DNA of 64,000 bases from Bacteroidota bacterium (GTDB lineage Bacteria; Bacteroidota; Bacteroidia; Bacteroidales; UBA4417). The translations under genes were made by a program, and so were the position numbers. Location: assembly GCA_022711175.1 (NCBI GenBank), contig JAKLFM010000001.1, positions 69,780-133,779 of the forward strand. The letters are read 5' to 3'. This document shows, one piece after another, positions 1 through 62,234 of the stretch. The notes under the pieces were generated by a model. It was given only the letters and a program-made list of their open reading frames with translations, was not told the DNA's origin and made no database searches. Each line of letters begins with the position of its first letter. Position 1 is the first letter of the stretch.

Positions 1-589
1 TTTCCATGGAGCGGTCGAGAATTTCAGTATATGCGTCAACATTGTTGCCGAACTGCTTTTCGCGTATCATATGCAGGTAGCCGTCGATGGCATTGAGGGG
101 CGCCTTGAGTTCGTGCGACAACACTGAAAGAAACTGAAACCTTATTTGTTTGCCGGTACTGTTGAGCGATTGGGTCATTCGCTTCAGGAAAAGCTGCTTC
201 GTGATATTTTCGATGCTTGCTCTTATTTCCTGGGGTGTGAAAGGCTTCGGAATAAAGTCAATAGCGCCGTCGCGGGTGGCTTTAACGGCAAGTTCGAGCG
301 AGGCATACGAAGTTATCATTACAACAATGATGTCGTAATGCTTATTTTTTACATACTCTAATACTTCAACACCTTGAATATCAGGCAGCTTATTGTCTAA
401 CAGCAGGATATCGGGCTGTTGTGTATCTATAATTTCGATCCCCTCGCTTCCAGTGGCTGCTTCAAGTATCTCGAATTCAATGTGTTCATCCATAAAAGGA
501 TAATCCACTTTGAAATTCTGCAGAATACGCCTTGTGCCATCGCGAATTCCCTGCTCGTCGTCAATTACTAAGATTTTGAAAGTGGCCAT
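1..589 (-). CDS. Hybrid response-regulator receiver / histidine kinase, N-terminal part (gene runs off the left edge)
   Basis: Reverse translation from ATG 589-587 gives MATFKILVIDDEQGIRDG..., a receiver domain (LLLDNKLPD). It is followed by a kinase H-box, SHELKAPLNAIDGY. No stop codon occurs before position 1. The start lies 2 nt after the stop of the upstream receiver gene. Confidence 0.75.
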   Translation of the reverse strand, partial: MATFKILVIDDEQGIRDGTRRILQNFKVDYPFMDEHIEFEILEAATGSEGIEIIDTQQPDILLLDNKLPDIQGVEVLEYVKNKHYDIIVVMITSYASLELAVKATRDGAIDFIPKPFTPQEIRASIENITKQLFLKRMTQSLNSTGKQIRFQFLSVLSHELKAPLNAIDGYLHMIREKQFGNNVDAYTEILDRSME

Positions 590-591
590 TC

Positions 592-978
592 CTACATTTT
601 TAATAATTTCTTGATTTCGCGCTGCAACTGGTCAATTCTTATGCCTTTGTCAAGGAAAAGATCAGCATTGATCCAGCGCTGGTTTTCTTCAGCCATCACA
701 TCGAAGGACATTCCCGTTTCGGCAGTAACGGCAGTTGCAATTATAATGGGCACATCAGGATATCTGCGTTTGATTTTATAACTCAGGATGAACCCGCTGT
801 CATCGGTTTCCATCATAAGGTCCAGAATACACAAATCGGGTTTAATTTCTTCTATTATTTTTTCGGCCTCCTTTTGACTTTCGGCGGTGATGGTATCAAA
901 ACCCATACTTTCAACTTTCAGTTTCATCTGAAAAATATAGTCGATGTCATCGTCAACAATCAGGATTTTCTTTTTCAT
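592..978 (-). CDS. Stand-alone CheY-like response-regulator receiver (128 aa, no output domain)
   Basis: MKKKILIVDDD...DLCILDLMM has the receiver acidic pocket and phospho-acceptor Asp. The protein contains a receiver domain only. Confidence 0.85.
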   Translation of the reverse strand: MKKKILIVDDDIDYIFQMKLKVESMGFDTITAESQKEAEKIIEEIKPDLCILDLMMETDDSGFILSYKIKRRYPDVPIIIATAVTAETGMSFDVMAEENQRWINADLFLDKGIRIDQLQREIKKLLKM

Positions 979-1022
979 TATATGTTCTGTATTGTATTCG
1001 TAAATATGCGCACAGGAAAATA

Positions 1023-3050
1023 TTACAGCATCCGCTTCCTCGGAAGGGTGATTGTGAAGGTGGTTCCAGTAGCCCCTTTCAAAATATCGGCATTTGAATC
1101 TACTTTAACATCGCCTTTATGCATTTTCACAATGCCGTATATGATTGGAAGTCCGAGGCCTGTTCCTTTCCCAATGCCTTTGGTAGTAAAAAAAGGTGTG
1201 AAGAGCTTGTCCATATGCTCTTGCAGTATTCCCGAACCATTATCGGTAACACGTATGAAGATAGTTTCATCTGTATCGCTGAGGCTGAGGGTGATTTTAC
1301 CTCCTTCGGGCATTGCCTCAACCGAATTCTTGATCAGGTTTGTAACAACTTGTGTCATTTGGTCGTAATCGAGCATCGCCTTATTGTTGATAAGGTGGTT
1401 TTCGAGTATAAGGCTTATGTTAGAGGGAATCACAACTGAATTCATACTATGTTCGGCGAGCTCTGACAAGTCGATCTCAGTTATGTTCACCTGGTTCTTA
1501 CGTGCGAAGTTCAGTAATCCCCCGACGATTTTCCGGCAACGGTCGGCTTGTTCAACTATGAGTTCCAAATCTTTATGAATGGGGTTTTCCTGGGGAATTT
1601 CTTCGCGTAATATATTGCTGTACATGGTGATAACACCAAGCGGGTTGTTGAGTTCATGAGCAATTCCCGCTGAGAGCTGTCCCATACCTGCTAATTTCTC
1701 CGAGTGTCGCAGGGCTTCCTGCACTGTTGCCAGTTTCTCGTTTGAGATGTTGAGTTCGCGGATATATTTATGCAGTTTTTCGATGGAATATGGCAGGCAC
1801 ATTTCTGTTTCTGCAAGTCCGCTGAGTATGGCTACAGCATGTTCTTCGCATGAATCGTAGCCACAGGCGCCGCAATTGAGGTAATCGCCCGGCCCGTACT
1901 TTCCCATCCTGAACATCACTTCCCTGATTTGCTCGTTTGAAGGCCTCACCCCGCGCATATCGATTGATTTAAATGATCGCGACAGGTCGAGTTTGCTATA
2001 TTCATCAAGATTTTTCTGCCATTCATCGCGATCGATCACGGCCATTTTTGCATTGGCATAATTGATAATTCGCGCCTTTTTAGCGTATCGGTTGCTGCTG
2101 GCCGAAGTGTTGAGGTATGGCGACATGCCGGGGCCCATAATGCAGCCTTCGCAACACAACAGGTGAACATGATGGCCACGCAGGTTGCCTTGTTCATATT
2201 CGCGGAGGGCATCCTGGAAATTGGCCTTTCCGCCAGCAACTATTACATTCTCGCTGAGGATATCCTCGGTGACTTCCATTGTGTTGAGCAGGCCGTGGCT
2301 AAGCGGGAAAATAGCCCCCCTGCCCGACAATGGCGGATCAAATTCGGATGGCGTTATACTTTTTGGATTGATGCGGCTGTCGTTAAACATCTCGCGCAGT
2401 TCCCTGAAAGTGATGGCGTTGTCAATTTCTTTCGATTCGGCTTTTTTTGCCAGGCATGGCCCGATAAAAACCAGAATCGAATCAACACCATAAATGCTTC
2501 TCACAACCCTGGCCATAGCAACCATGGGCGAAACAACCTCAGCCAGGTTACCCACCAGGTCGGGGTAGTAACGTTCAATATATGATACAATAGCAGGGCA
2601 ATCGGATGAAATGGCCGGCAAACCGTTGTCAAGTTGTTCCTTATATTTACGTGCAACCAGATCGGCCCCGAAAGCCACCTCGGTTACATGACGAAAGCCA
2701 AGTTTCCTGATCATGCCTACGAAAACCTTATGATCGGGAATATCGGCAAATTCGGCGGGAAAACTGGGCGCCACCAGGGCAATAACTTTGGCACCGGATT
2801 GTATGAGTTTTGTTACAGGGTCAATTTCGCGGCGAAACACCTTAGCGTTTTGGCTGCAAACCTTTATACAATTGCCGCAGGCAATGCAGCGCTCGGTAAT
2901 CACTTCGGCCTGCCCGCCAGCAATGCGTATGGCTTTGGCCGGACACTCGCGCACACAGGTATAGCACATCCGGCATTTCTCCCTGATGGTGAATACCAGT
3001 TTGGCAATGGCCGGGTTTGGCTGATTTACATTATATTGAGTGTCTTCCAT
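1023..3050 (-). CDS. [FeFe]-hydrogenase-like (H-cluster domain) sensor fused to a histidine kinase (HisKA + HATPase_c)
   Basis: The N-terminus has 2x 4Fe-4S motifs (CRMCYTCVRECP, CIACGNCIKVC). Degenerate H-cluster motifs follow: SSDCPAIV, GPCLAKKAE, LLCCEGCIMGPG, plus CGACGYDSC. After a coiled coil come the H-box AHELNNPLG and DNGSGI...GTGLGL. The gene starts 23 nt downstream of hydA. Confidence 0.85.
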   Translation of the reverse strand: MEDTQYNVNQPNPAIAKLVFTIREKCRMCYTCVRECPAKAIRIAGGQAEVITERCIACGNCIKVCSQNAKVFRREIDPVTKLIQSGAKVIALVAPSFPAEFADIPDHKVFVGMIRKLGFRHVTEVAFGADLVARKYKEQLDNGLPAISSDCPAIVSYIERYYPDLVGNLAEVVSPMVAMARVVRSIYGVDSILVFIGPCLAKKAESKEIDNAITFRELREMFNDSRINPKSITPSEFDPPLSGRGAIFPLSHGLLNTMEVTEDILSENVIVAGGKANFQDALREYEQGNLRGHHVHLLCCEGCIMGPGMSPYLNTSASSNRYAKKARIINYANAKMAVIDRDEWQKNLDEYSKLDLSRSFKSIDMRGVRPSNEQIREVMFRMGKYGPGDYLNCGACGYDSCEEHAVAILSGLAETEMCLPYSIEKLHKYIRELNISNEKLATVQEALRHSEKLAGMGQLSAGIAHELNNPLGVITMYSNILREEIPQENPIHKDLELIVEQADRCRKIVGGLLNFARKNQVNITEIDLSELAEHSMNSVVIPSNISLILENHLINNKAMLDYDQMTQVVTNLIKNSVEAMPEGGKITLSLSDTDETIFIRVTDNGSGILQEHMDKLFTPFFTTKGIGKGTGLGLPIIYGIVKMHKGDVKVDSNADILKGATGTTFTITLPRKRML

Positions 3051-3073
3051 AAATGGCGCACTTTCATGGTATT

Positions 3074-4801
3074 TTACAGCAATACTTCCCTTTTTTGGTA
3101 ATCAGTATAGAGCATCTGGCGTATCTCCCCGTTAACGGGCAGATCAAGATAGTTGTCGTAGAGTATTTGCAGATCGGGATTTTTAAAAGGTGTTTTAACA
3201 GGCTCTTTATCGTCAATTTCATATATGGCTTTAGCCCTGGCTTTTACAGCTCCGTCATCATGGCTGGCCGGCTGGCCGCCGCCACCCACGCAGCCACCGG
3301 GGCATGCCATCACTTCAACGAAATGGATATCAGTGCGTCCCGCCTCAATTTCATTCAGCAATGTTTCGGCGTTTCCTATTCCGTTTACAACCGCAAAGCC
3401 TAGCGTAAAGTCGCCAATTTTTACTGTAAACTCTTTAATTCCTTTTGATGACCGAAGCTCGGTTATGCGCTTTGCCTGCAAATCTTTACCGGTAATCATC
3501 ACAAACAGCACCCTGATGAGCGCCTCGGTCAGTCCCCCGCTAACGGCTAACATTTTGCCCGAAGCACTCCGGCTTCGGTACGGCTGATCCGACATTTCGG
3601 GTTCAACCTGCTGAACATCAATGCCATTAAGACGAATCAGCCTGGCGAGCTCGCGGGTTGTCAGCACCATATCAACATCCGTAATACCTTTGTGAGTCAT
3701 TTGTTCGCGTTGCGACTCAAACTTCTTCGCGATACAGGGCATAGCCGAAACGGAATAGACTTTTTCGGCCTTTAATTTCCTGCTTTGAGTAAAGTGATTG
3801 CTTATCAACGTGCCCATCATTTGCTGTGGCGATTTGCACGTTGAAATATGATTGAGAAGCTGAGGCCTGAATTGCTCGGCATACTTGATCCATGCAGGGC
3901 AACAGCTCGAGAACATTGGTGTTTTACCACCATCGCGAAGCCTGCTGAGCAATTCGCCGGCAAGCTCGGTAATGTACAGATCGGCTGCAAACGAGGTGTC
4001 GAATACGAAATTGAAACCAATTTTTCGTAGAACAGCGTACATTACCCCTTCCATATCTTTTCCTGTCCTGAAGCCAAATTCCTCGGCCAGGGTGACCGAT
4101 AAGGTAGGTGAACACTGAATAACCGTTTGTATTTCAGGATTATGGAGTTTCTCCTGGAGTTCAGCAGGATGCTTTTTTTCCGTTAACGCGCCTGTAGGGC
4201 AAACAAGAATACACTGTCCGCAGTTGATACAACTCGAAAGGTTCATGCCTTTGTTGAAGGCTGGACCTACCTGCATTTCGTTACCGCGCCCGATAAATTC
4301 AAGGGCTGTAACATTCTGAATTTCTTCGCAAACCCTTATGCACCTGCCGCAGAGAATGCACTTGGCGGGATCACGGAATAGCGAAGCACTTGAAGGATCG
4401 GTTTTGTATTTATTCTTTTTACCAAAGAACCTGCGTTCGCGAACATAGAGGTCTTCGGAAAACTTTTGCAATTCGCAGTTACCGTTACTTTCGCAATAGA
4501 GACAGTCGTCAGGATGATTGCTGAGCAGCAATTCGATGTTTGTTTTTCGGGCTTTGATGACGCGGGGTGAATGTGTACGAATTTTCATCCACTCTTCAAC
4601 CGGATGTGAGCAGGCAGGCAGCAAGCCTTGTTTTCCTTCAACCTCAACAACGCACATACGGCATGCCCCCGAAGGCTGCAATCCGCGTATATGGCACAAC
4701 GTTGGAATGCTTATGGCATTTCGCTCAAGCGCCGACAAAATCGTTTCGCCGTTGCGCGCCTTTATGGTTTTACCGTTGACTTCTATATCGAAAAACATCA
4801 T
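3074..4801 (-). CDS. hydA: [FeFe]-hydrogenase catalytic subunit (HydA/HndD type, 575 aa)
   Basis: N-terminal 2Fe-2S and several 4Fe-4S motifs are present. All three canonical H-cluster motifs are intact: FSSCCPAW, MPCIAKKFE, EVMACPGGCVGGGGQP. Confidence 0.92.
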   Translation of the reverse strand: MMFFDIEVNGKTIKARNGETILSALERNAISIPTLCHIRGLQPSGACRMCVVEVEGKQGLLPACSHPVEEWMKIRTHSPRVIKARKTNIELLLSNHPDDCLYCESNGNCELQKFSEDLYVRERRFFGKKNKYKTDPSSASLFRDPAKCILCGRCIRVCEEIQNVTALEFIGRGNEMQVGPAFNKGMNLSSCINCGQCILVCPTGALTEKKHPAELQEKLHNPEIQTVIQCSPTLSVTLAEEFGFRTGKDMEGVMYAVLRKIGFNFVFDTSFAADLYITELAGELLSRLRDGGKTPMFSSCCPAWIKYAEQFRPQLLNHISTCKSPQQMMGTLISNHFTQSRKLKAEKVYSVSAMPCIAKKFESQREQMTHKGITDVDMVLTTRELARLIRLNGIDVQQVEPEMSDQPYRSRSASGKMLAVSGGLTEALIRVLFVMITGKDLQAKRITELRSSKGIKEFTVKIGDFTLGFAVVNGIGNAETLLNEIEAGRTDIHFVEVMACPGGCVGGGGQPASHDDGAVKARAKAIYEIDDKEPVKTPFKNPDLQILYDNYLDLPVNGEIRQMLYTDYQKREVLL

Positions 4802-4853
4802 GGATGTTTTGTTATTGTTCAGGGAAACAGATTATTAGGCCAGGTTTCATTAT

Positions 4854-6785
4854 TTACTTGATTGTTATGGCTACAAACTTGCATACGTCGTAACAAATAC
4901 CGCAGCCTATGCATTTATCCTCGATAATGAAATGCGGCTGCCTTGGCTGACCAACAATTGCATTGGTAGGGCATTTGCGCAGGCAGGCAACGCAACCTGT
5001 ACATTTGTCCACTTCGATGTAGAACACCCGTAACTCCTTACACACTCCGGCTTTGCACCTGCGGTCGAAAATGTGTTCTTCAAATTCATCGCGAAACCAT
5101 TTCATAGCACTCACCAGCGGGTTAGGAGCTGTTTGCCCCAATCCGCAAAGCGATGTATCACGTATCACTTCCGATAGTCCTTCGAGCTGCATGATGCCTT
5201 TGAACCGTTCGAGCACTTCGTGCCCGGTTTCGCTGGGCGGCCTGCGTGTAATATTTTCAAGTATTTCATGAATACGGCGTGTACCTTCGCGGCAGGGAAT
5301 GCACTTACCGCAACTCTCCTGTTGCAAAAAATCCATGAAGAACTTCACCATATCAACCATGCAGGTATTCTCATCCATCACCACAATGCCGCCCGAACCC
5401 ATGATTGCACCGGCTTCCCACAGCGATTCATAATCAACCGGCAAACTGAGCTGCTGCTCGGGCACACAACTTCCTGATGGGCCACCGATTTGCAATGCTT
5501 TGAATTGTTTTTCGTCCTTAATGCCTCCGGCAATCTTAAACACGAGGTTTTTGAGGGTCGTCCCCATTTCAACTTCAATAAGCCCTGTAACTGCTGATTT
5601 TCCGGTAACGGCAAATACCTTTGTTCCTTTGCTGGTGGCAGTTCCGATACTGTTAAACGCCTGCGGCCCGTTTTTAAGGATATAGGTAACGTTCGACAGC
5701 GTTTCTACATTGTTAATAACGGTAGGCTTTCTGAACAGCCCTTCCACTGCAGGATGCGGCGGTTTGGGCATAGGCATGGCCCTCTTACCCTGGATACTGT
5801 TAATCAGGGCGGTTTCCTCACCGCACACAAATGCACCCGGACTTACTACCACATTGATTTGCAGGTCGATACCGCTCTTGAAAATATTGTAACCCAGCAG
5901 GCCGTATTCTTTCATCTGTGCAATAGCTGTGCGCAGATGCCTTATAGCCTGCTGATAATCGGCCATGATGTAAATATATGTTTTGGTGGCGCCTATGGCA
6001 TATGCAGCAATAGCAATGCCCTCGAGCAATGCATGAGGGTCGCCTTCGATAACAGCACGATCCATAAAAGCGCCCGGATCACTCTCTGCAGCATTACAAA
6101 CCAGGTATTTCTGATCGCTTACAGTATTATGAGCTGTTTTCCATTTTCGTCCGGTAGGGTAACCTCCACCTCCGCGCCCGCGTAAACCACTTTCGTCAAT
6201 AATATCGCAAACTTTTTCGGCAGTATAATTGCTGAGGCATTTAAGGTATGTTTGGTAACCGCCGCGTGCAATATAATCAGCAATATTCTGCGGATCAATT
6301 TTACCGCAATTGGCAAGTACTATACGGTGCTGATGTTTAAAAAACGGGAGTTGGCCGATATCGTCAACCCCTTGGTATGCCTGGTGAAGCGGATTAAAAA
6401 ACTGCCCGAGTACATAATCCTGCGGAACAATACCATTGAAAATATCGTCGAGCACAGGTTCAACCAGTGATTCGTCGATATTGCGAAATGAGATGCGTGA
6501 TTTACCCGGTAACTGAACATCGAGCAGCGGTTCGGCTGAGCAAAGGCCTATGCAGCCTACTTCAACCGTTTCGGCATCAATGTTTTTCTCCGAAAGATAA
6601 TTTCGCGTGGCTTGCAATGTTTTATCAGCGCCTGCAACAATACCACAACTACCTGTTCCTACGTAGATTACAGGACGTTTGATTCGTTCGCGGCGAATTT
6701 CGGCAAGCCTTTTCAAAGCAGCCTGCCCATGATCGGGAGCTTTAGCCGTTAGAATTTCTGAGATCAAGAATTCCCTGTCGCTCAT
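4854..6785 (-). CDS. hydB: NuoF-like NAD(P)H/FMN-binding hydrogenase subunit (HydB/HndC type)
   Basis: The protein has an N-terminal thioredoxin-like 2Fe-2S domain and the FMN/NADH motif GLRGRGGGGYPTGRKW. It also has ESCGKCIPCREG and a C-terminal 2x CxxCxxCxxxCP. Confidence 0.9.
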   Translation of the reverse strand: MSDREFLISEILTAKAPDHGQAALKRLAEIRRERIKRPVIYVGTGSCGIVAGADKTLQATRNYLSEKNIDAETVEVGCIGLCSAEPLLDVQLPGKSRISFRNIDESLVEPVLDDIFNGIVPQDYVLGQFFNPLHQAYQGVDDIGQLPFFKHQHRIVLANCGKIDPQNIADYIARGGYQTYLKCLSNYTAEKVCDIIDESGLRGRGGGGYPTGRKWKTAHNTVSDQKYLVCNAAESDPGAFMDRAVIEGDPHALLEGIAIAAYAIGATKTYIYIMADYQQAIRHLRTAIAQMKEYGLLGYNIFKSGIDLQINVVVSPGAFVCGEETALINSIQGKRAMPMPKPPHPAVEGLFRKPTVINNVETLSNVTYILKNGPQAFNSIGTATSKGTKVFAVTGKSAVTGLIEVEMGTTLKNLVFKIAGGIKDEKQFKALQIGGPSGSCVPEQQLSLPVDYESLWEAGAIMGSGGIVVMDENTCMVDMVKFFMDFLQQESCGKCIPCREGTRRIHEILENITRRPPSETGHEVLERFKGIMQLEGLSEVIRDTSLCGLGQTAPNPLVSAMKWFRDEFEEHIFDRRCKAGVCKELRVFYIEVDKCTGCVACLRKCPTNAIVGQPRQPHFIIEDKCIGCGICYDVCKFVAITIK

Positions 6786-6813
6786 GCTTTTTCTTTTATA
6801 CCCTTACTGTGAT

Positions 6814-7275
6814 TCAGGCTCTTTTGCGAATGACGTCGAAAAGTAATGCCAAATCGCCGGCTGACAGGACGGTATGAAATTCACCGTTGATGGCAATGAT
6901 TGGCGCTTTGCTACATGCCCCCATGCAGTTAACAACCTGCAGGCTAAACATGCCGTCGCGGGTTACCTGCCCATCGCGGATTTTAAGCAGCTTTTCAATT
7001 TCACGCAGCAGCGATACAGCTCCCTCGATATGGCAAGTAGTTCCGCCGCAAACCTGGAGGTGATACCGGCCCTTCGGCATAAATCTGAAATGGTCGTAAA
7101 AGGTAGAAATACCGTAAACCTTACTTGATGGCAGCCCAACATACCGTCCGACGGCTACAACCGCTTCCTCCGACAAATAGCCAGCTTCTTCCTGGATTTC
7201 CTGCAAGAGTGGCAATAAGGCTTCACGGCTCCCTTTTTTATACCTCGAACAAATTACATCAATGTCAATCGGCAT
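6814..7275 (-). CDS. hydC: NuoE-like [2Fe-2S] hydrogenase subunit (HydC/HndA type)
   Basis: The CGGTTCHIEG...CMGACSKAP cysteine pattern matches the NuoE family. It is the first gene of the minus-strand operon. Confidence 0.88.
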   Translation of the reverse strand: MPIDIDVICSRYKKGSREALLPLLQEIQEEAGYLSEEAVVAVGRYVGLPSSKVYGISTFYDHFRFMPKGRYHLQVCGGTTCHIEGAVSLLREIEKLLKIRDGQVTRDGMFSLQVVNCMGACSKAPIIAINGEFHTVLSAGDLALLFDVIRKRA

Positions 7276-7354
7276 ACTAATTTTTCTTGGGGTATCAGCT
7301 ACAAAAATAACTATTCTCTAGGATTTGAAAGAATAAATTGTTAAAAAAATAACA

Positions 7355-7372
7355 GTGTTATTGAAATAACAA
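7355..7372. promoter_or_regulatory. Rex-like palindromic operator candidate in the divergent hyd promoter region
   Basis: GTGTTA-TTGAAA-TAACAA matches TTGTTA-N6-TAACAA at 11 of 12 half-site positions. It is embedded in AATAACA-G-TGTTATT-GA-AATAACA (7348-7371). It lies about 80-97 nt from both divergent start codons. Confidence 0.4.
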
Positions 7373-7453
7373 AGACAAGCAGTCCAATTTTACTACTTTT
7401 GTTTTACAGTTATGGTGTAACTTCACACAGCGATAAACGTAAGCTAACCGAAA

Positions 7454-7708
7454 ATGGACCCACTGAAAAAAGAGATAGTGATCTGTCTTGGCAGTTCATG
7501 CTTTGCACGCGGCAACAAATCGGCAATAAAAGCAATTACCGAGTTCCTGAAGGAACACAATCTGCAGAATGATGTTAATTTTCGTGGCGAAAGGTGCTTT
7601 GGTATGTGCGCTAAAGGACCTGTTTTGAAATTGGGTAACGTTTATCACGAAAATGCCGATACCGAATCAATCATACTCTTACTCCGCGATTACCTCGAAA
7701 TCAATTAA
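7454..7708 (+). CDS. Small thioredoxin-like [2Fe-2S] ferredoxin (84 aa)
   Basis: Four Cys residues occur in CLGSSC...CFGMC, as in the NuoE C-terminal fold. It is the first gene of the plus-strand sensor operon. Confidence 0.75.
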   Translation: MDPLKKEIVICLGSSCFARGNKSAIKAITEFLKEHNLQNDVNFRGERCFGMCAKGPVLKLGNVYHENADTESIILLLRDYLEIN

Positions 7709-7742
7709 TACCATCCCCCTTATAAATTAAGCTCCAGTGATT

Positions 7743-9602
7743 ATGGAAAGCCCGCTGCTGCATATAAATGCTGACCTCTGTAAGGAGTGTTATGCCTGCA
7801 TACGTATATGTCCTGTAAAGGCTATCGAACTCAGGGCTAACGAAACCGTGCCATTTATTGCTGATTCCCGCTGCATTGGATGCGGGAGTTGCCTCGAAGT
7901 ATGTCATCCCAAGGCCATTATTTATTATGATTCGCGACAGGATGTGCGAAAGCTGCTCGATTCCGAATCAAAAGTAACTGCCCTGCTCGATCCAAGCATA
8001 TCAGCCGAATTCGACGATATTACGGATTACCGCAAGTTTGTCGCCATGGTTAAACAACTGGGTTTCAACTATGTACACGAAACAGCTTTTGGAGTTGATC
8101 TGGTTGCAAAAGAATATCATGAACTGGTGAGTAATTTCCTGGGCAAATACTACATACTGGCAAATTGCCCTCCCATTGTATCACTTGTTGAGAAATATCA
8201 CCCGGCGCTAATCGAAAACCTTGCTCCCATTGTAAATCCAATGGTTGCATCAGCCAAAGTTGCCCGCATGCTGCATGGTGATGATACACATATTGTTTTT
8301 ATAGGCCCTTGCCTGGGGGCAAAAACCGAAGCCATGCGGTTCGAAGGCGACGGCGCTGTGGATGCTGTGCTGATGTTTGATGAACTGCGACGAATGTTCG
8401 AAGAAACCGGCATCAAAGAAAGTACCATCGAATACGCCGATTTTGAAGAACCTACAGGATACAAAGGTTCATTGTTTGCCCTTAGCGACGGCATATTGCA
8501 GGCAGCCGGCCTAAGCCAGGATATGCTTACAGGCACCATGGTTACCATTGATGGCCGCGACCGTGTCTTGCAGGCGATAAAGCAGTTTGAAGAAAGTATT
8601 GATTACATCCGCAAGAACTTCAACATTTTCTATTGCGAAGGCTGTATCATGGGTCCCGGAATGAAGCCAAACGGCATGAAACTGAAACGCCGGACCGAAG
8701 TGGTAAGCTACAGCAATAAACGACTGGCTAATTTCGAAAAAGGTAAATGGATTAAAGAACTGAATCATTTCAGCGGTATTGAACTCAGGCGGACATTTGC
8801 TGCTGATGACCAACGGTTAGCCCCGGCGCCTAAGGACAAGGTGGAAGAGATTCTCAAAATCATAGATAAAGGTGACGGAGAGATGGACTTAGGTTGCAAG
8901 GCTTGCGGATACGAAAGCTGCCGCGATTTTGCCGAAGCAGTTGCTAACGGAATTGCACGAACCGACATGTGCATAAATTATTCTCTTCGAAGCAAACAGG
9001 AATACATTAAGTCGCTGAAAGTCACCAACGAGAAGCTGGCCAAAACGCAACAGGCTTTGCAGGATTCGGAAAAGCGTGCGCTCATCGAAAAACAAGCTAC
9101 CGAAGATGCACTCGAAACAACACAGACCATGCTTCGCAAACTGCCTACAGCAGTGCTTATTGTTGATGAGTCGCTGAAAATCATTGCATCAAACGAAAGT
9201 TTTATAACCATCCTGGGCGAAGAGGCTGCCGATATCAACGAAATAATTCCCGGTTTGGTGGGTGCCGACCTCAAAACACTGCTGCCTTTCAATTTCTACA
9301 AACTCTTTCAGTATGTTCTCACCAGTGCCGATGATATTGTTGGCCGCGATGTTCACCTGAATGATAAGCTGCTGAATGTCACCATCTTTTCGATAAGGAA
9401 AAATAAAATTGTTGGCGGTGTGGTTCGCGACATGTATATGCCCGAAGTAAGGAAAGAAGAAGTGATAAACCGCGTAACCGATGTAATAGAGCAAAACCTG
9501 GAACTCGTTCAGCAGATTGCCTTCCTTCTCGGCGAAGGAGCTTCAAAAACTGAAAAGATGCTGAATTCGATCATTGAGTCGCATCAATCCAAAGAAGAAT
9601 AA
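7743..9602 (+). CDS. HydS-like sensory [FeFe]-hydrogenase homologue with a C-terminal PAS domain
   Basis: 2x 4Fe-4S motifs (CKECYACIRICP, CIGCGSCLEVC) are followed by ANCPPIV, GPCLGAKTE, FYCEGCIMGPG and CKACGYESC. A coiled coil and a PAS-like region (TAVLIVDESLKIIASNESF) follow. I prefer the ATG at 7743; the ORF track starts at GTG 7737. Confidence 0.85.
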   Translation: MESPLLHINADLCKECYACIRICPVKAIELRANETVPFIADSRCIGCGSCLEVCHPKAIIYYDSRQDVRKLLDSESKVTALLDPSISAEFDDITDYRKFVAMVKQLGFNYVHETAFGVDLVAKEYHELVSNFLGKYYILANCPPIVSLVEKYHPALIENLAPIVNPMVASAKVARMLHGDDTHIVFIGPCLGAKTEAMRFEGDGAVDAVLMFDELRRMFEETGIKESTIEYADFEEPTGYKGSLFALSDGILQAAGLSQDMLTGTMVTIDGRDRVLQAIKQFEESIDYIRKNFNIFYCEGCIMGPGMKPNGMKLKRRTEVVSYSNKRLANFEKGKWIKELNHFSGIELRRTFAADDQRLAPAPKDKVEEILKIIDKGDGEMDLGCKACGYESCRDFAEAVANGIARTDMCINYSLRSKQEYIKSLKVTNEKLAKTQQALQDSEKRALIEKQATEDALETTQTMLRKLPTAVLIVDESLKIIASNESFITILGEEAADINEIIPGLVGADLKTLLPFNFYKLFQYVLTSADDIVGRDVHLNDKLLNVTIFSIRKNKIVGGVVRDMYMPEVRKEEVINRVTDVIEQNLELVQQIAFLLGEGASKTEKMLNSIIESHQSKEE

Positions 9603-9619
9603 CCTATGCAGGAAAGCTC

Positions 9620-10831
9620 ATGAGTGTTACTACAGCAAACAACCAGCTTAATAACCCGTTCTACGTTGAAGTAAACGTGGTTCATAAAAATTATGACCTG
9701 GAACGTATTTGCGGCGACCATTTCCTTTCGAAGCGCATTTATGAAGAAAACAGGATCATTGCCGTACTCAGCGATGGTATGGGTCATGGCGTGAAGGCAG
9801 CAATGCTTTCGACGCTTACAGCTACAATGGCTCTCAACCTCACCGAAGAACACAAGGATGTGCAGCGTATTGCCGAAATCATTATGAATACGCTGCCGGT
9901 TTGCAGCGAACGCAAAATGAGTTACAGCACCTTTACAATTGTTGACATTGAAATTGACGGCTATACCAGGATACTTGAATACGATAACCCGCAGACTATT
10001 ATCCTGCGTGGCAATAAGATCCTCGACCCCGACTGGCAAACCATTACATTAGTGTCGGAAAAAAATGCCGGCAAGGAACTCCGCACATGTTCGTTTGTAC
10101 CACAAAAAGAAGACCGCATTGTTTTTTGCTCCGATGGAGTGGCACAATCGGGGATGGGTGGTACAAAGTATCCTTTTGGTTATGGCCAGGAGAACATGGC
10201 AAAATATATGCAGGAACTCATCACAAGCGATAAAACCATTTCGGGCGCGCAACTAGCCGCAAAAATGGTAAACATGGCAGTGATGAATGACAACTATCAT
10301 CCGAAAGACGATACCAGCTGTGCAGTTATTTATTTCCGCGAACCCCGGCGACTGCTCATTTGTACCGGCCCTCCTTACGAAGAAACCAAAGACACAGAAC
10401 TTGCAGAAGTGGTAAAGGCTTTCGACGGTAAAAAGATCATTTGCGGCGCTACCACCGGCGATATAATCAGCCGCGAACTCGGAGTTCCTATTATCGACAG
10501 TTTTGAATTTGATGATACCGACCTGCCGCCCGTTTCGTTTATGGATGGTATTGATCTTGTTACCGAAGGCATTCTTACATTGGGCAAGGTTTCGGAAATC
10601 CTGAAGAATCATTCGCAGAAGTATAAACTCGGCAAAGGCCCTGCCGATCAAATAGTAAGGCTGTTGCTCGACAGCGACGATATTCACTTCATTATCGGAA
10701 CGCGTATCAACATCGCTCACCAGGACCCGAGTCTGCCGGTCGAGCTCGAAATCAGACGCACGGTTGTCCGCCGTATTGCAAGGCTGCTCGAAGATAAGTT
10801 CCTGAAAGAAGTGACGATGAATTTTATTTAA
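9620..10831 (+). CDS. PP2C/SpoIIE-family serine phosphatase with an uncharacterised C-terminal module of about 165 aa
   Basis: CGDHF...VLSDGMGHGVKAAMLS...FCSDGV...DDTSC are typical SpoIIE/PP2C metal-binding motifs. The gene starts 17 nt after the PAS-sensor stop. Confidence 0.8.
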   Translation: MSVTTANNQLNNPFYVEVNVVHKNYDLERICGDHFLSKRIYEENRIIAVLSDGMGHGVKAAMLSTLTATMALNLTEEHKDVQRIAEIIMNTLPVCSERKMSYSTFTIVDIEIDGYTRILEYDNPQTIILRGNKILDPDWQTITLVSEKNAGKELRTCSFVPQKEDRIVFCSDGVAQSGMGGTKYPFGYGQENMAKYMQELITSDKTISGAQLAAKMVNMAVMNDNYHPKDDTSCAVIYFREPRRLLICTGPPYEETKDTELAEVVKAFDGKKIICGATTGDIISRELGVPIIDSFEFDDTDLPPVSFMDGIDLVTEGILTLGKVSEILKNHSQKYKLGKGPADQIVRLLLDSDDIHFIIGTRINIAHQDPSLPVELEIRRTVVRRIARLLEDKFLKEVTMNFI

Positions 10832-41595: not shown

Positions 41596-42315
41596 ATGGC
41601 GGAGCAAGTTTCAAAAGGCAACCTTTACCTCCTCCCTTCTGCCCTGGGTGATGTTACCGTGGATGATTGCCTTCCGCCTCTCAACAGCCATATTCTGAAT
41701 ACATTAGATCACTTCATCGTTGAAGAACTCAGGTCTGCAAGGCGTTTTCTGAAAAAAGCGGGTTACACCGGAAAAATTGACGATGTAACTTTTTACCTCC
41801 TCAACGAACACACTGCTGATACTGAATTGAGCAGCTTCCTCAAACCGGCTACTGATGGTCAAAGCATTGGACTGATGAGTGAAGCCGGTTTACCCTGCAT
41901 TGCCGATCCGGGACATAAAATTGTGGTGCTGGCTCATCGCAATGACATCAGGGTGGTACCACTCACGGGACCGTCGTCGCTCATGCTGGCTTTGATGGCC
42001 TCTGGGTTCAACGGGCAGCAGTTCACCTTCCATGGTTATCTGCCTGTGAAGCCGCATGAGCGTGCACAAGCGCTGAAGAAACTGGAAAAAGAAGCCCGGC
42101 TTACCGGTTATTCACAGATTTTTATCGAAACGCCCTACCGCAACCTCTCCATGTTCGAATCCGTTGTGGCAGCTTGTGCGCCTGAAACTAAGCTTTGCAT
42201 CGCCGCAAATCTCACCTTATCTGACGAATTCATTGCCACAATGCAGTTAAGCCAGTGGAAAAAGAAAGTTCCTGAAATTCAGAAAAAACCGGCAGTTTTT
42301 ATCATTGGTAGCTGA
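41596..42315 (+). CDS. Tetrapyrrole-methylase-fold SAM-dependent methyltransferase (RsmI-like)
   Basis: GNLYLLPSALGD, SEAGLPCIADPG and GPSSLMLALMASG are present. The ATG at 41596 lies immediately after the upstream stop. Confidence 0.65.
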   Translation: MAEQVSKGNLYLLPSALGDVTVDDCLPPLNSHILNTLDHFIVEELRSARRFLKKAGYTGKIDDVTFYLLNEHTADTELSSFLKPATDGQSIGLMSEAGLPCIADPGHKIVVLAHRNDIRVVPLTGPSSLMLALMASGFNGQQFTFHGYLPVKPHERAQALKKLEKEARLTGYSQIFIETPYRNLSMFESVVAACAPETKLCIAANLTLSDEFIATMQLSQWKKKVPEIQKKPAVFIIGS

Positions 42316-61521: not shown

Positions 61522-61601
61522 TCAACAGTTTAACACGAAAGTGTGATGTTTTCGGGATTTCAGCATATTAACTTTGCTGCGCAGGATCAAACACAGGTGC
61601 A

Positions 61602-62234
61602 ATGAACAGGGAAATCAAAATTTTGATTGTTGATGATGATCAGGCCGTAAGAGAAGGGCTGAAAATGCTCATTGGAGGCTCTGAAGGCTTTCAGTGCGTT
61701 GCAGCCTGTGCGTCAGCCGAAGAAGCCCTCGAAATTATCCCCGGCACACTGCCTGATGTCGTGCTCATGGATATAAACCTGCCGGGCATGAACGGCATTG
61801 AGTGTGTTGTTTGCATCAGGAGTGCCCATCCCGAAATTCAGGTGATGATGCTGACCGTATTCGATAATACCGAAGAAATCTTTAAATCGCTGGCTGCCGG
61901 CGCAACAGGTTATCTGCTTAAAAAAACGCCGCCGGCCAAATTGCTCGAAGCTATTAGCGACCTTGTTAACGGCGGTTCGCCCATGAGCGGCGAAATTGCC
62001 CGCAAAGTTGTACAGACATTCACAAAACCTTCGGCATACCAGTTCCCTGATGCCAACCTAACACCCCGCGAGGAAGAAATACTTGGTTATCTGGCAAAGG
62101 GATTTCTGTACAAGGAAATTGCCAATGCCTTGTTTATCAATATAGAAACAGTGCGCACCCACATTCACAAGATCTATCAGAAACTCCAGGTACGCACCCG
62201 TACCGAAGTGCTGCTCAAGTTTATGAACCGATAG
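61602..62234 (+). CDS. NarL/FixJ (LuxR-type HTH) response regulator
   Basis: A receiver domain (ILIVDDD...VLMDINLPG) is followed by a C-terminal GerE/LuxR HTH (LTPREEEILGYLAKGFLYKEIA). Confidence 0.9.
   Translation: MNREIKILIVDDDQAVREGLKMLIGGSEGFQCVAACASAEEALEIIPGTLPDVVLMDINLPGMNGIECVVCIRSAHPEIQVMMLTVFDNTEEIFKSLAAGATGYLLKKTPPAKLLEAISDLVNGGSPMSGEIARKVVQTFTKPSAYQFPDANLTPREEEILGYLAKGFLYKEIANALFINIETVRTHIHKIYQKLQVRTRTEVLLKFMNR

What the first reader, a model, noticed from the sequence alone, without database searches (positions are those of the whole stretch)
1..10831. NuoE/NuoF-linked [FeFe]-hydrogenase operon bracketed by two paralogous H-cluster 'sensor' proteins wired to different signalling outputs
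SEEN: hydC-hydB-hydA (7275 down to 3074, gaps of 28 and 52 nt) continues after a 23-nt gap into a hydrogenase-like protein fused to a histidine kinase. A 128-aa receiver follows after 44 nt, then a receiver-kinase hybrid after 2 nt. Across a 178-nt AT-rich region the opposite strand encodes an 84-aa 2Fe-2S protein, a second hydrogenase-like paralogue ending in a PAS domain, and a PP2C/SpoIIE phosphatase. The catalytic HydA keeps the canonical motifs (SCCPAW, MPCIAKKFE, EVMACPGGCVGGGGQP). Both paralogues carry the same degenerate set (xxCP, GPCLxxKxE, CEGCIMGPG, CxxCGYxSC). ESTABLISHED: trimeric HydABC enzymes are the group A3 NAD(P)H/ferredoxin-linked type. Degenerate H-cluster proteins are classed as putative sensory group C, with histidine-kinase-linked and phosphatase-linked subclasses. 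Only a few HydS proteins, such as the Thermotoga one, have been characterised spectroscopically. To my knowledge no signalling pathway has been traced from sensor to output. INFERENCE: both subclasses flank the enzyme they presumably control, one co-transcribed with it and one divergent. This suggests a two-channel H2/redox sensing circuit, with a His-Asp relay plus a Ser/Thr phospho-switch. That would make the locus an unusually compact place to dissect such signalling in Bacteroidota.
Basis: partly seen in the sequence, partly recalled or inferred. Interest (0 to 1): 0.8.

Follow-up and report, generated by a model that had tools for sequence, protein, structure and literature searches.

The report
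Hydrogenase operon with two hydrogen-sensor paralogues

Summary
hydC-hydB-hydA runs into a degenerate hydrogenase fused to a histidine kinase, then a receiver and a receiver-kinase. On the other strand lie a 2Fe-2S protein, a second degenerate hydrogenase ending in a divergent PAS domain, and a SpoIIE/PP2C phosphatase.

Both paralogues keep the H-cluster cysteines and the Cx2Cx4Cx16C motif of group C/D sensors. They are ancient paralogues (38% identity), not recent duplicates. The kinase arm follows hydABC in every untruncated related locus. The divergent arm is present in 42 of 61.

The window cuts the locus. On the source contig the operon continues into rex, ribF, a metallo-hydrolase gene, hydG and two TM1266-like genes. 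The shared promoter region holds a tandem Rex operator, conserved in 43 of 48 rex-carrying loci. So a third, NADH/NAD+ input is the only one here with a visible DNA-binding output; neither sensor arm has one.

Sensors beside bifurcating hydrogenases, the hfsABC-like module, kinase-linked sensors in Bacteroidales and joint Rex/HydS control are all published. Verdict: a new member of a known kind, of moderate interest.

The parts
1..589 (-). N-terminal 196 aa of a receiver-histidine kinase hybrid (REC-HisKA-HATPase, 375 aa on the source contig); cut by the window start
   Evidence: Pfam Response_reg 85.6 bits and HisKA 33.6 bits. Full gene in L001 12462-13589. D65 and H159 are conserved in 78 of 78 orthologues.
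592..978 (-). Stand-alone receiver domain protein (128 aa)
   Evidence: Pfam Response_reg 55.7 bits. Phospho-acceptor D53 and K111 are conserved in 79 of 79 orthologues. It follows the sensor kinase in every untruncated locus.
1023..3050 (-). HydS-HK: two 4Fe-4S motifs, a degenerate H-domain, Cx2Cx4Cx16C, a coiled-coil linker, then HisKA and HATPase (675 aa)
   Evidence: Pfam Fe_hyd_lg_C 162 bits, FeS 33.6, HisKA 50.9, HATPase_c 88.9. C151, C199, C300, C303, K202, E205 and H465 are invariant in 81 of 81 orthologues. More than 120 clusters at 63% identity or above share this architecture.
3074..4801 (-). HydA, catalytic [FeFe]-hydrogenase subunit (M3 architecture)
   Evidence: Canonical L1-L3 motifs. 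Pfam Fe_hyd_lg_C 282 bits, Fer2_4, NADH-G_4Fe-4S_3 and Fe_hyd_SSU. Best PDB hits are the bifurcating HydA1 of 8a6t and 7q4v and HydA of 7p5h, full length.
4854..6785 (-). HydB, NuoF-like flavoprotein subunit with extra Fe-S domains
   Evidence: Pfam Complex1_51K 158.6 bits, NADH_4Fe-4S 94.2 and two C-terminal Fer4. Full-length PDB hits to HydB of 7q4v, 8a6t and 7p5h.
6814..7275 (-). HydC, NuoE-like thioredoxin-like [2Fe-2S] subunit
   Evidence: Pfam 2Fe-2S_thioredx 150.6 bits. TIGR01958 142.8 bits against a cut-off of 142.4.
7302..7309 (-). Candidate Bacteroidetes-type -7 promoter box (TATTTTTG on the minus strand) for hydC
   Evidence: Conserved as TTATTTTTGTAG in the six closest loci. Matching it to the TAnnTTTG consensus rests on my own knowledge; it is not tested.
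7338..7355 (.). Rex operator 1 (TTGTTAAAAAAATAACAG)
   Evidence: Matches 12 of 14 specified positions of the Rex consensus. The consensus TTGTGAANNNNTTCACAA is quoted in PMC6391272. It is one of only two TGTKA-N6-TMACA cores in the 64 kb.
7355..7372 (.). Rex operator 2 (GTGTTATTGAAATAACAA), offset 17 bp from operator 1
   Evidence: The tandem pair at a 17-bp offset occurs in 43 of 48 rex-carrying loci, 3 of 22 loci without a detected rex, and 7 of 3500 shuffled regions. It is the only block conserved across otherwise unalignable intergenic DNA.
7394..7401 (+). Candidate -7 promoter box (TACTTTTG) for the divergent fdx-hydS(PAS)-pp2c unit
   Evidence: Conserved in the close clade as the reverse complement of AAAACAAA[AT][GA]TAG. 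Not tested.
7454..7708 (+). 84-aa thioredoxin-like [2Fe-2S] protein (HfsA-like position)
   Evidence: Pfam 2Fe-2S_thioredx 38.5 bits. C11, C16, C48 and C52 are conserved in 23 of 23 orthologues.
7743..9602 (+). HydS-PAS: two 4Fe-4S motifs, a degenerate H-domain, Cx2Cx4Cx16C, a coiled coil, a divergent PAS domain and a conserved C-terminal helix (619 aa)
   Evidence: Pfam Fe_hyd_lg_C 122 bits and FeS 35.3. PAS is supported at family level. 38% identical to HydS-HK over 441 aa, including the linker.
9620..10831 (+). SpoIIE/RsbU-type PP2C phosphatase with a conserved C-terminal alpha/beta domain of unknown function (403 aa)
   Evidence: Pfam SpoIIE 47.1 bits. D52, D172 and D230/231 are conserved in 44 of 44 orthologues. 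AF2 model pLDDT 82.8; the top Foldseek hits are SpoIIE, RsbU, RsbX, RssB and SiaA.

Best explanation
The region is the right-hand two thirds of a conserved Bacteroidota hydrogenase island. Its components and order are shown. Rex control of the promoter is strongly inferred. H2 sensing, phosphotransfer and the downstream targets are inferred only.

1. Two divergent transcription units share a 178-nt AT-rich promoter region.
- One is hydC-hydB-hydA-hydS(HK)-rec-rec/HK. On the source contig it continues with rex, ribF, a metallo-hydrolase gene, hydG and two TM1266-like genes.
- The other is fdx(2Fe-2S)-hydS(PAS)-pp2c.

2. HydABC is an A3-type NADH- and ferredoxin-linked (confurcating or bifurcating) [FeFe]-hydrogenase.

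3. A tandem Rex operator lies between the two candidate -7 boxes. Rex most likely represses both units, and so itself, when NADH/NAD+ is low, and releases them when NADH builds up.

4. On top of this, two anciently diverged hydrogenase-derived modules probably report H2, the product.
- Each keeps the H-cluster ligands but lacks the proton-relay Cys, so it should bind H2 and turn over slowly.
- HydS-HK would pass the state of its H-cluster through the C-terminal 4Fe-4S domain and a conserved coiled coil to its DHp domain. That would set autophosphorylation and transfer to the stand-alone receiver and the receiver-kinase, whose final target lies outside the locus.
- HydS-PAS, with its 2Fe-2S partner, would modulate the partner-switch-type PP2C, which dephosphorylates a phospho-Ser/Thr protein encoded elsewhere.
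For: Gene identities:
- Pfam and NCBIfam calls for every gene.
- Full-length PDB matches to bifurcating HydABC.

Sensor character:
- H-cluster Cys, K and E are invariant in 81 of 81 HydS-HK orthologues. The C299 position is always Asp and the M353 position always Gly.
- The Cx2Cx4Cx16C motif is exact in both paralogues. These are the published group C/D criteria (PMC8163306).
- In other lineages the same module is fused to sigma-54 activators, GGDEF, GGDEF-HD and MCP domains. Among the top 150 cluster representatives, 46 carry a kinase and 61 a PAS-like C-terminus. This is the pattern expected of an input domain.

Intact signalling chemistry:
- H465, the REC Asp residues, H159 and the PP2C metal-binding Asp residues are all invariant.

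Synteny:
- hydCBA-hydS(HK)-rec-rec/HK is present in every untruncated locus of 80 species-level genomes.
- The divergent arm is present in 42 of 61 loci and rex in 52 of 71.

Rex:
- The protein scores above the NCBIfam cut-off (198 against 126 bits).
- The tandem operator occurs in 43 of 48 rex-carrying loci, 3 of 22 loci without rex, and 7 of 3500 shuffles.
- It holds the only two TGTKA-N6-TMACA cores in the 64 kb, flanked by conserved candidate -7 boxes.

Precedent:
- Rex represses [FeFe]-hydrogenase genes, hydG and rex itself in Caldicellulosiruptor (PMC6391272).
- Rex and HydS are jointly proposed to regulate bifurcating hydrogenases (PMC10084766).
- hfsB deletion has regulatory phenotypes (PMC5707799).
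Against: - No experiment bears on this locus. H2 binding by these proteins is untested.
- The distal Cys pair is spaced Cx2C (CEGC), not the Cx3C of HydA. I could not confirm that spacing in any characterised HydS.
- In the PAS-type family the C499-equivalent Cys is replaced by Asn, Asp or Thr in 12 of 44 orthologues. A canonical H-cluster is therefore not universally required in that arm.
- In TamHydS the C-terminal cluster does not respond to H2 (PMC13104023). That undermines the simplest relay model.
- No DNA-binding response regulator, STAS protein or anti-sigma kinase is encoded nearby.
- The loci lacking both the arm and rex form a single clade. The arm-rex co-occurrence and the Fisher p-value therefore reflect few independent events.
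- Co-transcription rests only on short gaps and the lack of terminator-like sites in them.
Confidence: 0.55

Rival explanations
1. HydS-HK is not a free H2 sensor. It is a fourth, physically attached subunit of HydABC. It reads the electron load or turnover of the enzyme through its N-terminal 4Fe-4S relay and reports that flux to the phosphorelay, or tunes the enzyme after translation.
For: - hydS(HK) follows hydA after 23 nt, and in every untruncated locus.
- It keeps a two-cluster N-terminal relay like catalytic enzymes.
- It has no dedicated small ferredoxin, unlike the PAS paralogue.
- The equivalent protein in Hydrogenedentota is already named a 'T subunit' (BfuT) of BfuABC (PMC11406978).
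Against: - The solved HydABC complexes contain no such subunit (PDB entries listed).
- The same module is fused to many unrelated outputs in other lineages. That fits a portable sensor better than a structural subunit.
- Adjacency alone does not show a complex.
Confidence: 0.2
2. The two sensor arms do sense H2 or redox state, but their targets are fermentation and other genes elsewhere, as adhE is in Firmicutes. They do not act on hydCBA. Their position next to hydABC only ensures co-expression under Rex.
For: - Neither arm has a DNA-binding output in the locus.
- In Thermoanaerobacterium, hfsB loss changes adhE expression and ethanol yield (PMC5707799).
- In Ruminococcus albus the sensor sits with a ferredoxin-only hydrogenase and an alcohol dehydrogenase, not with HydABC (PMC6776011).
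- The only conserved cis-element at the hyd promoter is the Rex pair.
Against: - This is compatible with, not opposed to, part of the main model.
- The strict linkage of hydS(HK), rec and rec/HK to hydCBA over deep divergence suggests a functional tie to this enzyme.
Confidence: 0.2
3. The paralogues no longer carry a working H-cluster. They are Fe-S redox sensors or inactive relics that descend from hydrogenases.
For: - The Cys pair is contracted to Cx2C.
- The C499-equivalent Cys is lost in 12 of 44 PAS-type orthologues.
- Authors working on Hydrogenedentota could hardly find H-cluster motifs in their C1 proteins (PMC11406978).
Against: - In the HydS-HK family all four Cys plus K202 and E205 are invariant in 81 of 81 sequences. 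In the window's PAS copy all four Cys are present.
- hydG lies in the same operon.
- The characterised TmHydS and TamHydS bind an H-cluster (PMC10055695; PMC8163306).
Confidence: 0.08

Closest known systems
hfsABCD of Thermoanaerobacterium saccharolyticum, and HydS with its phosphatase in Ruminococcus albus
   Same: The order is the same: a small 2Fe-2S protein, a HydS with a PAS domain, then a PP2C-type Ser/Thr phosphatase. A regulatory role is inferred from genetics (PMC5707799; PMC11837493; PMC6776011).
   Different: - There the module sits with a ferredoxin-only hydrogenase (HfsD or HydA2) in one operon. Here no such hydrogenase is present, and the module is divergent from a trimeric HydABC.
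- The window's PAS paralogue falls in a separate NJ clade of 616-623 aa proteins with Cx2C spacing. The large clade of 555-600 aa proteins with Cx3C spacing includes the Firmicutes members.
- I could not obtain the hfsB sequence, so orthology is untested.
Group C (M2f) putative sensory [FeFe]-hydrogenase TmHydS of Thermotoga maritima; group D TamHydS
   Same: Two N-terminal 4Fe-4S motifs, retained H-cluster Cys ligands, loss of C299, M353 replaced by Gly as in TmHydS, a C-terminal Cx2Cx4Cx16C motif, and genes beside a group A hydrogenase (PMC8163306; PMC10055695).
   Different: - One window paralogue replaces the PAS domain with a complete histidine kinase.
- The M497 position is Leu or Phe rather than Ser.
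- The distal Cys pair is Cx2C.
- No biochemical data exist for either window protein.
HydDB group C1 'histidine kinase-linked' protein of Petrimonas mucosa; C3 'BfuT' next to BfuABC in Hydrogenedentota
   Same: A degenerate hydrogenase with a kinase or PAS output encoded close to an electron-bifurcating HydABC/Hnd/Bfu enzyme, including in a cultured member of the Bacteroidales (PMC7768429; PMC11406978).
   Different: Those reports describe one sensor per locus. They do not mention a second sensor arm, the rec and rec/HK relay, rex or Rex operators.
HoxBC-HoxJ-HoxA H2-sensing system of Cupriavidus necator ([NiFe] group 2b)
   Same: It works alike in outline: a slow regulatory hydrogenase coupled to a histidine kinase controls hydrogenase genes (summarised in PMC5707799; HydDB table).
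   Different: The metal centre and protein families are unrelated. There the output regulator HoxA is known and encoded in the cluster; here none is.
Rex regulon of [FeFe]-hydrogenase genes in Clostridia and Caldicellulosiruptor
   Same: The Rex protein, an 18-bp palindromic operator upstream of hydrogenase genes, rex autoregulation, and hydG in the regulon (PMC6391272).
   Different: - Here rex lies inside the hydrogenase operon of a Bacteroidota genome.
- The operator is an overlapping tandem pair of the TTGTTA-N6-TAACAA type.
- Binding is not tested.

Membership tests
Group A3 trimeric HydABC [FeFe]-hydrogenase | HydA with canonical H-cluster motifs L1, L2 and L3 and M3-type N-terminal clusters | tested here: met
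   SCCPAW, MPCIAKKFE and EVMACPGGCVGGGGQP are present. Pfam finds Fer2_4, NADH-G_4Fe-4S_3, Fer4 and Fe_hyd_SSU. The PDB match to 8a6t_A covers residues 6-572.
Group A3 trimeric HydABC [FeFe]-hydrogenase | NuoF-like HydB with extra Fe-S domains and NuoE-like HydC encoded alongside HydA | tested here: met
   Pfam and NCBIfam calls. HydB matches 7q4v_B, 8a6t_B and 7p5h_B over its full length.
Group A3 trimeric HydABC [FeFe]-hydrogenase | HydA scores above the curated cut-off of NCBIfam NF040763 (NADH-dependent [FeFe] hydrogenase) | tested here: not met
   698.8 bits against a cut-off of 765. It is the best-scoring family and the match is full length, so the shortfall reflects divergence, not a different architecture.
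Group A3 trimeric HydABC [FeFe]-hydrogenase | Electron bifurcation or confurcation with NAD(H) and ferredoxin | not testable with these tools
   Needs enzymology.
Group C (M2f) putative sensory [FeFe]-hydrogenase (HydS) | Two N-terminal 4Fe-4S motifs and an H-domain that keeps the four H-cluster Cys ligands | tested here: met
   Both window proteins have them. In the HydS-HK family they are invariant in 81 of 81 sequences. In the PAS family three Cys are present in 43 of 44 sequences, but the C499-equivalent in only 32 of 44. The spacing of the distal pair is Cx2C.
Group C (M2f) putative sensory [FeFe]-hydrogenase (HydS) | Proton-relay Cys (CpI C299) not conserved; M353 replaced by Gly | tested here: met
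   HydS-HK has D150 and G197. HydS-PAS has N141 and G188. Criteria from PMC8163306.
Group C (M2f) putative sensory [FeFe]-hydrogenase (HydS) | C-terminal Cx2Cx4Cx16C cluster motif | tested here: met
   The spacing is exact in both proteins, and the Cys are invariant in 81 of 81 and 44 of 44 orthologues. Pfam FeS PF04060 scores above its cut-off.
Group C (M2f) putative sensory [FeFe]-hydrogenase (HydS) | C-terminal PAS domain | tested here: inconclusive
   HydS-PAS: below the Pfam cut-off on its own, but 14 of 14 orthologues hit PAS models, and a profile of them hits only PAS proteins in the PDB at E 0.003-0.13. HydS-HK: no PAS; a histidine kinase follows the linker directly.
Group C (M2f) putative sensory [FeFe]-hydrogenase (HydS) | HydDB subgroup (C1, C2 or C3) by sequence classifier | not testable with these tools
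   No HydDB references were at hand. In an NJ tree of 128 sequences the two paralogues fall in different deep clades. The literature shows that C3 includes both PAS and kinase types.
Group C (M2f) putative sensory [FeFe]-hydrogenase (HydS) | Binds an H-cluster and reacts with H2 at low turnover | not testable with these tools
   Needs maturation followed by FTIR, EPR and activity assays.
hfsABC-type regulatory module | Small 2Fe-2S protein, HydS-PAS and PP2C phosphatase in one transcription unit | tested here: met
   The three genes span 7454-10831 on one strand, separated by 34 and 17 nt. The same trio occurs in 35-42 of 61 related loci.
hfsABC-type regulatory module | Co-encoded ferredoxin-only hydrogenase (HfsD or HydA2) | tested here: not met
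   The window holds no further hydrogenase-domain gene. The module is divergent from HydABC instead.
Two-component His-Asp phosphorelay | Kinase with an H-box His and ATPase domain; receivers with a phospho-acceptor Asp | tested here: met
   H465, REC D53, REC-HK D65 and H159 are invariant. Pfam scores are above the cut-offs.
Two-component His-Asp phosphorelay | Output response regulator with an effector (for example DNA-binding) domain in the locus | tested here: not met
   The locus holds only a stand-alone REC and a REC-kinase. The nearest REC-GerE gene is at 61602-62234, on a different contig.
Rex (NADH/NAD+-sensing repressor) regulon | A Rex protein and a palindromic Rex operator in the promoter | tested here: met
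   Rex scores 198 bits on NF003995 against a cut-off of 126; the gene lies outside the window at L001 13628-14248. The tandem operator at 7338-7372 is conserved in 43 of 48 rex-carrying loci.
Rex (NADH/NAD+-sensing repressor) regulon | NADH-sensitive DNA binding and repression | not testable with these tools
   Needs gel-shift assays and expression data.
Partner-switching PP2C (SpoIIE/RsbU/RsbX type) | PP2C fold with conserved metal-binding Asp residues | tested here: met
   The top Foldseek hits are 3pu9, 5mqh, 3ke6, 5ucg and 3w40, at E 1e-11 to 1e-9. D52, D172 and D230/231 are present in 44 of 44 orthologues.
Partner-switching PP2C (SpoIIE/RsbU/RsbX type) | Cognate STAS-domain substrate and anti-sigma kinase encoded nearby | tested here: not met
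   The Pfam lists of all called genes across the window and the left flank contain none.

The most novel reading that the evidence does not exclude
The locus could be a single three-input integrator in which the channels cross-talk rather than run in parallel. The PP2C arm would act on a component of the co-encoded His-Asp relay or on Rex. The kinase-type and PAS-type sensors, with differently tuned H-cluster pockets, would respond over different H2 ranges. HydABC expression would then be set jointly by NADH/NAD+ and a band of H2 partial pressure. This would be the first fully wired H2-sensing pathway for any [FeFe]-type sensor.
Probability: 0.12. Interest if true: 0.7.

Novelty: new member of a known kind. 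Interest (0 to 1): 0.4.

Why it matters
How [FeFe]-type 'sensory' hydrogenases signal is still open. In 2026 the proposed role of the C-terminal cluster had only just been tested, with a negative result, and no output has been traced.

A HydS fused directly to a histidine kinase, with its two receivers encoded next to it, gives a simple biochemical read-out: autophosphorylation and phosphotransfer under H2 against inert gas. PAS-only HydS proteins lack such a read-out.

The locus also shows that in many anaerobic Bacteroidota from digesters, sediments and guts, the confurcating hydrogenase is probably set by NADH/NAD+ through Rex as well as by H2. That matters for models of H2 flux and syntrophy.

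The value is as a convenient and very widespread test bed. It is not a new principle.

Tried and rejected
- **AF2 model of HydS-HK.** Built from a 14-sequence alignment, it reached only pLDDT 60 and pTM 0.47. That is too poor for fold comparison or for judging the linker helix, so I did not use it.
- **TmHydS and TamHydS sequences.** I searched the papers' supplements for them to check the Cx2C against Cx3C spacing and found nothing. Whether characterised HydS proteins share the contracted loop stays open.
- **Zheng et al. 2014 (PMC4248817).** Not held. Its model is cited only through later papers.
- **Organism names for tree clades.** The cluster-member look-up gave only 'Firmicutes/Bacillota' and 'Negativicutes' for the Cx3C PAS clade.
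- **PP2C C-terminal domain.** A profile against the PDB gave only a weak SIS-like hit at E 0.007. Foldseek gave a weak MGS-like hit at TM 0.43. No assignment was made.
- **Arm-rex co-occurrence (37 both, 16 neither) as evidence of a functional link.** Rejected, because the loci lacking both form one clade.
- **Sigma-70 promoter and terminator scan.** At background level and not applicable to Bacteroidota promoters.
- **Recent duplication of the two sensors.** Rejected: they share 38% identity and fall in separate deep clades.

Full report
**1. Observation**

Minus strand:
- hydC, 6814-7275
- hydB, 4854-6785
- hydA, 3074-4801
- a 675-aa hydrogenase-like protein fused to a histidine kinase (HydS-HK), 1023-3050
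- a 128-aa receiver, 592-978
- a receiver-kinase that runs off the window start, 1-589

Plus strand, beyond a 178-nt spacer:
- an 84-aa 2Fe-2S protein, 7454-7708
- a second hydrogenase-like protein (HydS-PAS), 7743-9602
- a 403-aa SpoIIE/PP2C phosphatase, 9620-10831

The spacer has 29% GC, against 46% for the window. Pfam and NCBIfam confirm every domain. The quoted motifs are all present.

The one weak point is the PAS domain. In the window protein it scores 19.3 bits against a cut-off of 27. However, 14 of 14 orthologous C-termini hit PAS models, with a best E of 2.6e-7. A profile of them finds only PAS proteins in the PDB.

**2. Where the window comes from, and what it cuts off**

The sensor kinase is found unchanged on contig JAMIIG010000079.1 of assembly GCA_035913675.1. 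On that contig the operon continues to the left of window position 1. In order, it holds:
- the complete 375-aa receiver-kinase
- Rex (NF003995, 198 bits against a cut-off of 126)
- RibF
- a metallo-hydrolase of the MBL fold
- HydG (TIGR03955, 479 bits against a cut-off of 312)
- two small CPF_0552/TM1266-like proteins

A Lentimicrobium genome whose sensor kinase is only 64% identical has the same 15 genes in the same order.

**3. The enzyme**

- HydA has the canonical L1-L3 motifs and the M3 cluster architecture.
- Its best solved relatives are the electron-bifurcating HydA1 of entries 8a6t and 7q4v and HydA of 7p5h, aligned end to end.
- HydB matches the corresponding HydB chains over its full length, including the C-terminal ferredoxin domains.
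- HydC reaches the NuoE-family cut-off.
- HydA falls just short of NCBIfam's own cut-off for the NADH-dependent class (698.8 against 765 bits).

The A3 assignment is sound. Bifurcation itself cannot be tested here.

**4. The two paralogues**

They share 38% identity over 441 residues. The shared stretch covers both N-terminal 4Fe-4S motifs, the H-domain, the C-terminal cluster motif and the following coiled-coil linker (NEKLAxxQxALxxSEK).

Measured against the published criteria for groups C and D (PMC8163306), both proteins have:
- the Cys ligands
- the proton-relay Cys replaced, by Asp in the kinase type and Asn in the PAS type
- Gly at the M353 position
- an exact Cx2Cx4Cx16C motif

In 81 HydS-HK orthologues the four Cys, K202, E205 and the H-box His are invariant. 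In 44 HydS-PAS orthologues three Cys are essentially invariant. The C499-equivalent, however, is Cys in only 32; it is Asn in 7, Asp in 4 and Thr in 1.

Both families space the distal Cys pair as Cx2C (CEGC), not the Cx3C of HydA. Among the 150 best cluster representatives both spacings occur. I could not establish which spacing the characterised TmHydS and TamHydS have.

**5. Family breadth and phylogeny**

- A profile of the shared sensor region finds 1240 clusters (at 50% identity) with E of 1e-30 or better.
- Of the best 150, 46 carry a kinase, 61 a PAS-like C-terminus and 43 something else or are fragments.
- Ten of the 'other' group were checked. They are fusions to sigma-54 AAA+/HTH activators, GGDEF, GGDEF-HD or MCP signalling domains.
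- This range of outputs on one input module is strong indirect support for a sensory role.
- In an NJ tree the window's kinase paralogue sits in the large kinase/other clade. The PAS paralogue sits in a small clade of 616-623 aa proteins with Cx2C spacing.
- That small clade is apart from the large clade of 555-600 aa PAS proteins with Cx3C spacing, which includes Firmicutes members.
- The paralogues are therefore ancient. The tree has no support values, and HydDB subgroups could not be assigned.

**6. Conservation of the arrangement**

A scan of species-representative genomes returned 80 loci with 55-76% identity to the sensor kinase. Nearly all are from Bacteroidota assembled from metagenomes: Bacteroidales, Lentimicrobiaceae, Tenuifilaceae and Rikenellaceae. 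I mapped the 15 reference proteins onto them by tblastn.

- hydC-hydB-hydA-hydS(HK)-rec-rec/HK is present in every locus that is not cut by a contig end.
- The divergent fdx-hydS(PAS)-pp2c arm is present in 42 of 61 loci with room for it.
- rex is present in 52 of 71 loci.
- Counting loci with both flanks: 37 have the arm and rex, 16 have neither, 3 have only rex and 1 has only the arm.
- The loci with neither form one clade, so this co-occurrence is mostly a single event.
- In that clade hydG-hydF-hydE follow the receiver-kinase directly, and an extra receiver protein precedes hydC.

**7. The promoter region**

The spacer contains two 18-bp palindromes:
- TTGTTAAAAAAATAACAG, 7338-7355
- GTGTTATTGAAATAACAA, 7355-7372

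They resemble the Rex consensus TTGTGAANNNNTTCACAA (PMC6391272) and are offset by 17 bp.

- The same tandem pair lies upstream of hydC in 43 of 48 loci that carry rex and in 3 of 22 that do not.
- It appears in 7 of 3500 shuffled regions.
- The Fisher p of 8e-10 is inflated by shared ancestry.
- The core TGTKA-N6-TMACA occurs only at these two places in the 64 kb, where 0.42 matches are expected.
- In an alignment of 11 spacers this pair is the only element conserved across the deeper divergences.
- In the closest clade it is flanked on each side by an outward-facing TAnnTTTG box, at window 7302-7309 on the minus strand and 7394-7401 on the plus strand.
- I read these boxes, from my own knowledge of Bacteroidetes promoters, as -7 elements. 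The Rex pair would then lie over the upstream parts of both divergent promoters.

**8. The signalling proteins**

- The phospho-acceptor and catalytic residues are invariant in the stand-alone receiver (D53, K111), the receiver-kinase (D65, H159) and the PP2C (D52, D172, D230/231).
- The PP2C model has pLDDT 82.8. It superposes best on partner-switching phosphatases: SpoIIE, RsbU, RsbX, RssB and SiaA.
- Its C-terminal alpha/beta domain of about 165 aa is very conserved but unassigned.
- No STAS protein, anti-sigma kinase or DNA-binding response regulator is encoded in the window or its left flank.
- Both sensor channels therefore end outside the locus.

**9. Mechanism**

Shown: the parts, their order, their conservation and the intact catalytic residues.

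Strongly inferred: Rex represses the divergent promoters and is relieved by NADH.

Inferred only:
- H2 binding by the two HydS modules
- transmission through the C-terminal cluster domain and coiled coil to the kinase or PAS domain
- phosphotransfer to the two receivers
- PP2C action on an unknown phosphoprotein

A caution applies. In TamHydS the C-terminal cluster is not reduced by H2 (PMC13104023). Three rival readings remain open: a flux-sensing fourth subunit, targets elsewhere in the genome, and loss of the H-cluster.

**10. Comparison with what is known**

- The divergent arm has the gene order of hfsABC of Thermoanaerobacterium and of the HydS-phosphatase pair of Ruminococcus albus. It lacks their ferredoxin-only hydrogenase.
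- Kinase-linked group C1 proteins near an Hnd/HydABC enzyme are reported for the cultured Bacteroidales species Petrimonas mucosa.
- Group C proteins with PAS or kinase domains next to A3 enzymes are reported as BfuT in Hydrogenedentota.
- Joint control of bifurcating hydrogenases by Rex and HydS has been proposed.
- Rex control of [FeFe]-hydrogenase genes, hydG and rex itself has been demonstrated in Caldicellulosiruptor.
- In the library I searched I did not find a description of both sensor types, the receiver relay and an operon-internal rex with a tandem operator together at one HydABC locus.

**11. Verdict**

The finding is real and well described, and its core inference is reasonable. 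Every component belongs to a known family, the concept is published, and the arrangement is common rather than unusual. The additions from this analysis are:
- the Rex channel
- the true extent of the locus
- the breadth and variability of the arrangement
- the relaxed Cys in part of the PAS-type family

I rate it a new member of a known kind, with an interest score of 0.4. The interest lies mainly in the kinase-fused sensor as a tractable way to test H2 sensing.

Noticed in passing
window 42210/42211: The window is a concatenation of two contigs of one assembly. JAMIIG010000079.1 ends at window position 42210. The sequence from 42211 onward belongs to JAMIIG010000167.1 in reverse orientation. 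No N spacer marks the join, so gene neighbourhood across this point is not real.
   Followed up: partly
L001 12462-18353 (source contig, left of window position 1): The hyd operon continues beyond the window. It holds the full receiver-kinase, rex, ribF (FAD synthetase; HydB needs FMN), an MBL-fold hydrolase, hydG and two small CPF_0552/TM1266-like proteins, which are putative iron-hydrogenase-system regulators. hydE and hydF are not in the window.
   Followed up: yes
window 8634-8636 (Cys298 of HydS-PAS) and orthologues in L003-L082: The Cys equivalent to CpI C499, an H-cluster [4Fe-4S] ligand, is replaced by Asn (7), Asp (4) or Thr (1) in 12 of 44 PAS-type orthologues. It is invariant in the kinase-type family. 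The window copy has Cys.
   Followed up: partly
window 2142-2153 (HydS-HK CEGC) and 8634-8645 (HydS-PAS CEGC): Both sensors space the two distal H-cluster cysteines as Cx2C, not the Cx3C (CPGGC) of HydA. Among 150 sensor-family representatives both spacings occur. The Cx3C form dominates the Firmicutes-type PAS clade.
   Followed up: partly
proteins P0158, P0165, P0173, P0189, P0210, P0213, P0237 (sigma-54 activators), P0145 and P0220 (GGDEF, GGDEF-HD), P0169 (MCP): In other lineages the same module (two Fer4 motifs, a degenerate H-domain and the FeS motif) is fused directly to sigma-54 AAA+/HTH transcription activators, diguanylate cyclases or MCP signalling domains. Some of these are therefore one-component versions with a built-in DNA-binding output.
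   Followed up: partly
window 10334-10831 (PP2C residues 239-403): The phosphatase carries a C-terminal alpha/beta domain of about 165 aa. It has no Pfam family but is very conserved (mean column identity 78% over the last 175 residues in 11 orthologues). The only similarities are weak ones to SIS- and MGS-like folds.
   Followed up: partly
window 9210-9602 (HydS-PAS C-terminus): After the PAS core comes a strongly conserved helical tail (EEVIxRVTEVIDxNLxMVQKIGFLLGEGASKTExMLNSIIES). It could be an interaction surface, for example for the PP2C.
   Followed up: no
L029 2082-5735 and 13551-17305, and the 15 other loci lacking both the divergent arm and rex: One clade of relatives lacks both the divergent sensor arm and rex and has no Rex boxes. 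It has an extra receiver-domain protein just upstream of hydC. Further upstream lie a Cache-PAS kinase and a LuxR-type regulator. hydG-hydF-hydE sit directly after the receiver-kinase.
   Followed up: partly
window 58522-62234: A 999-aa Y_Y_Y/HisKA_3 sensor kinase is followed by a REC-GerE response regulator. This is an unrelated two-component pair on the second contig.
   Followed up: no
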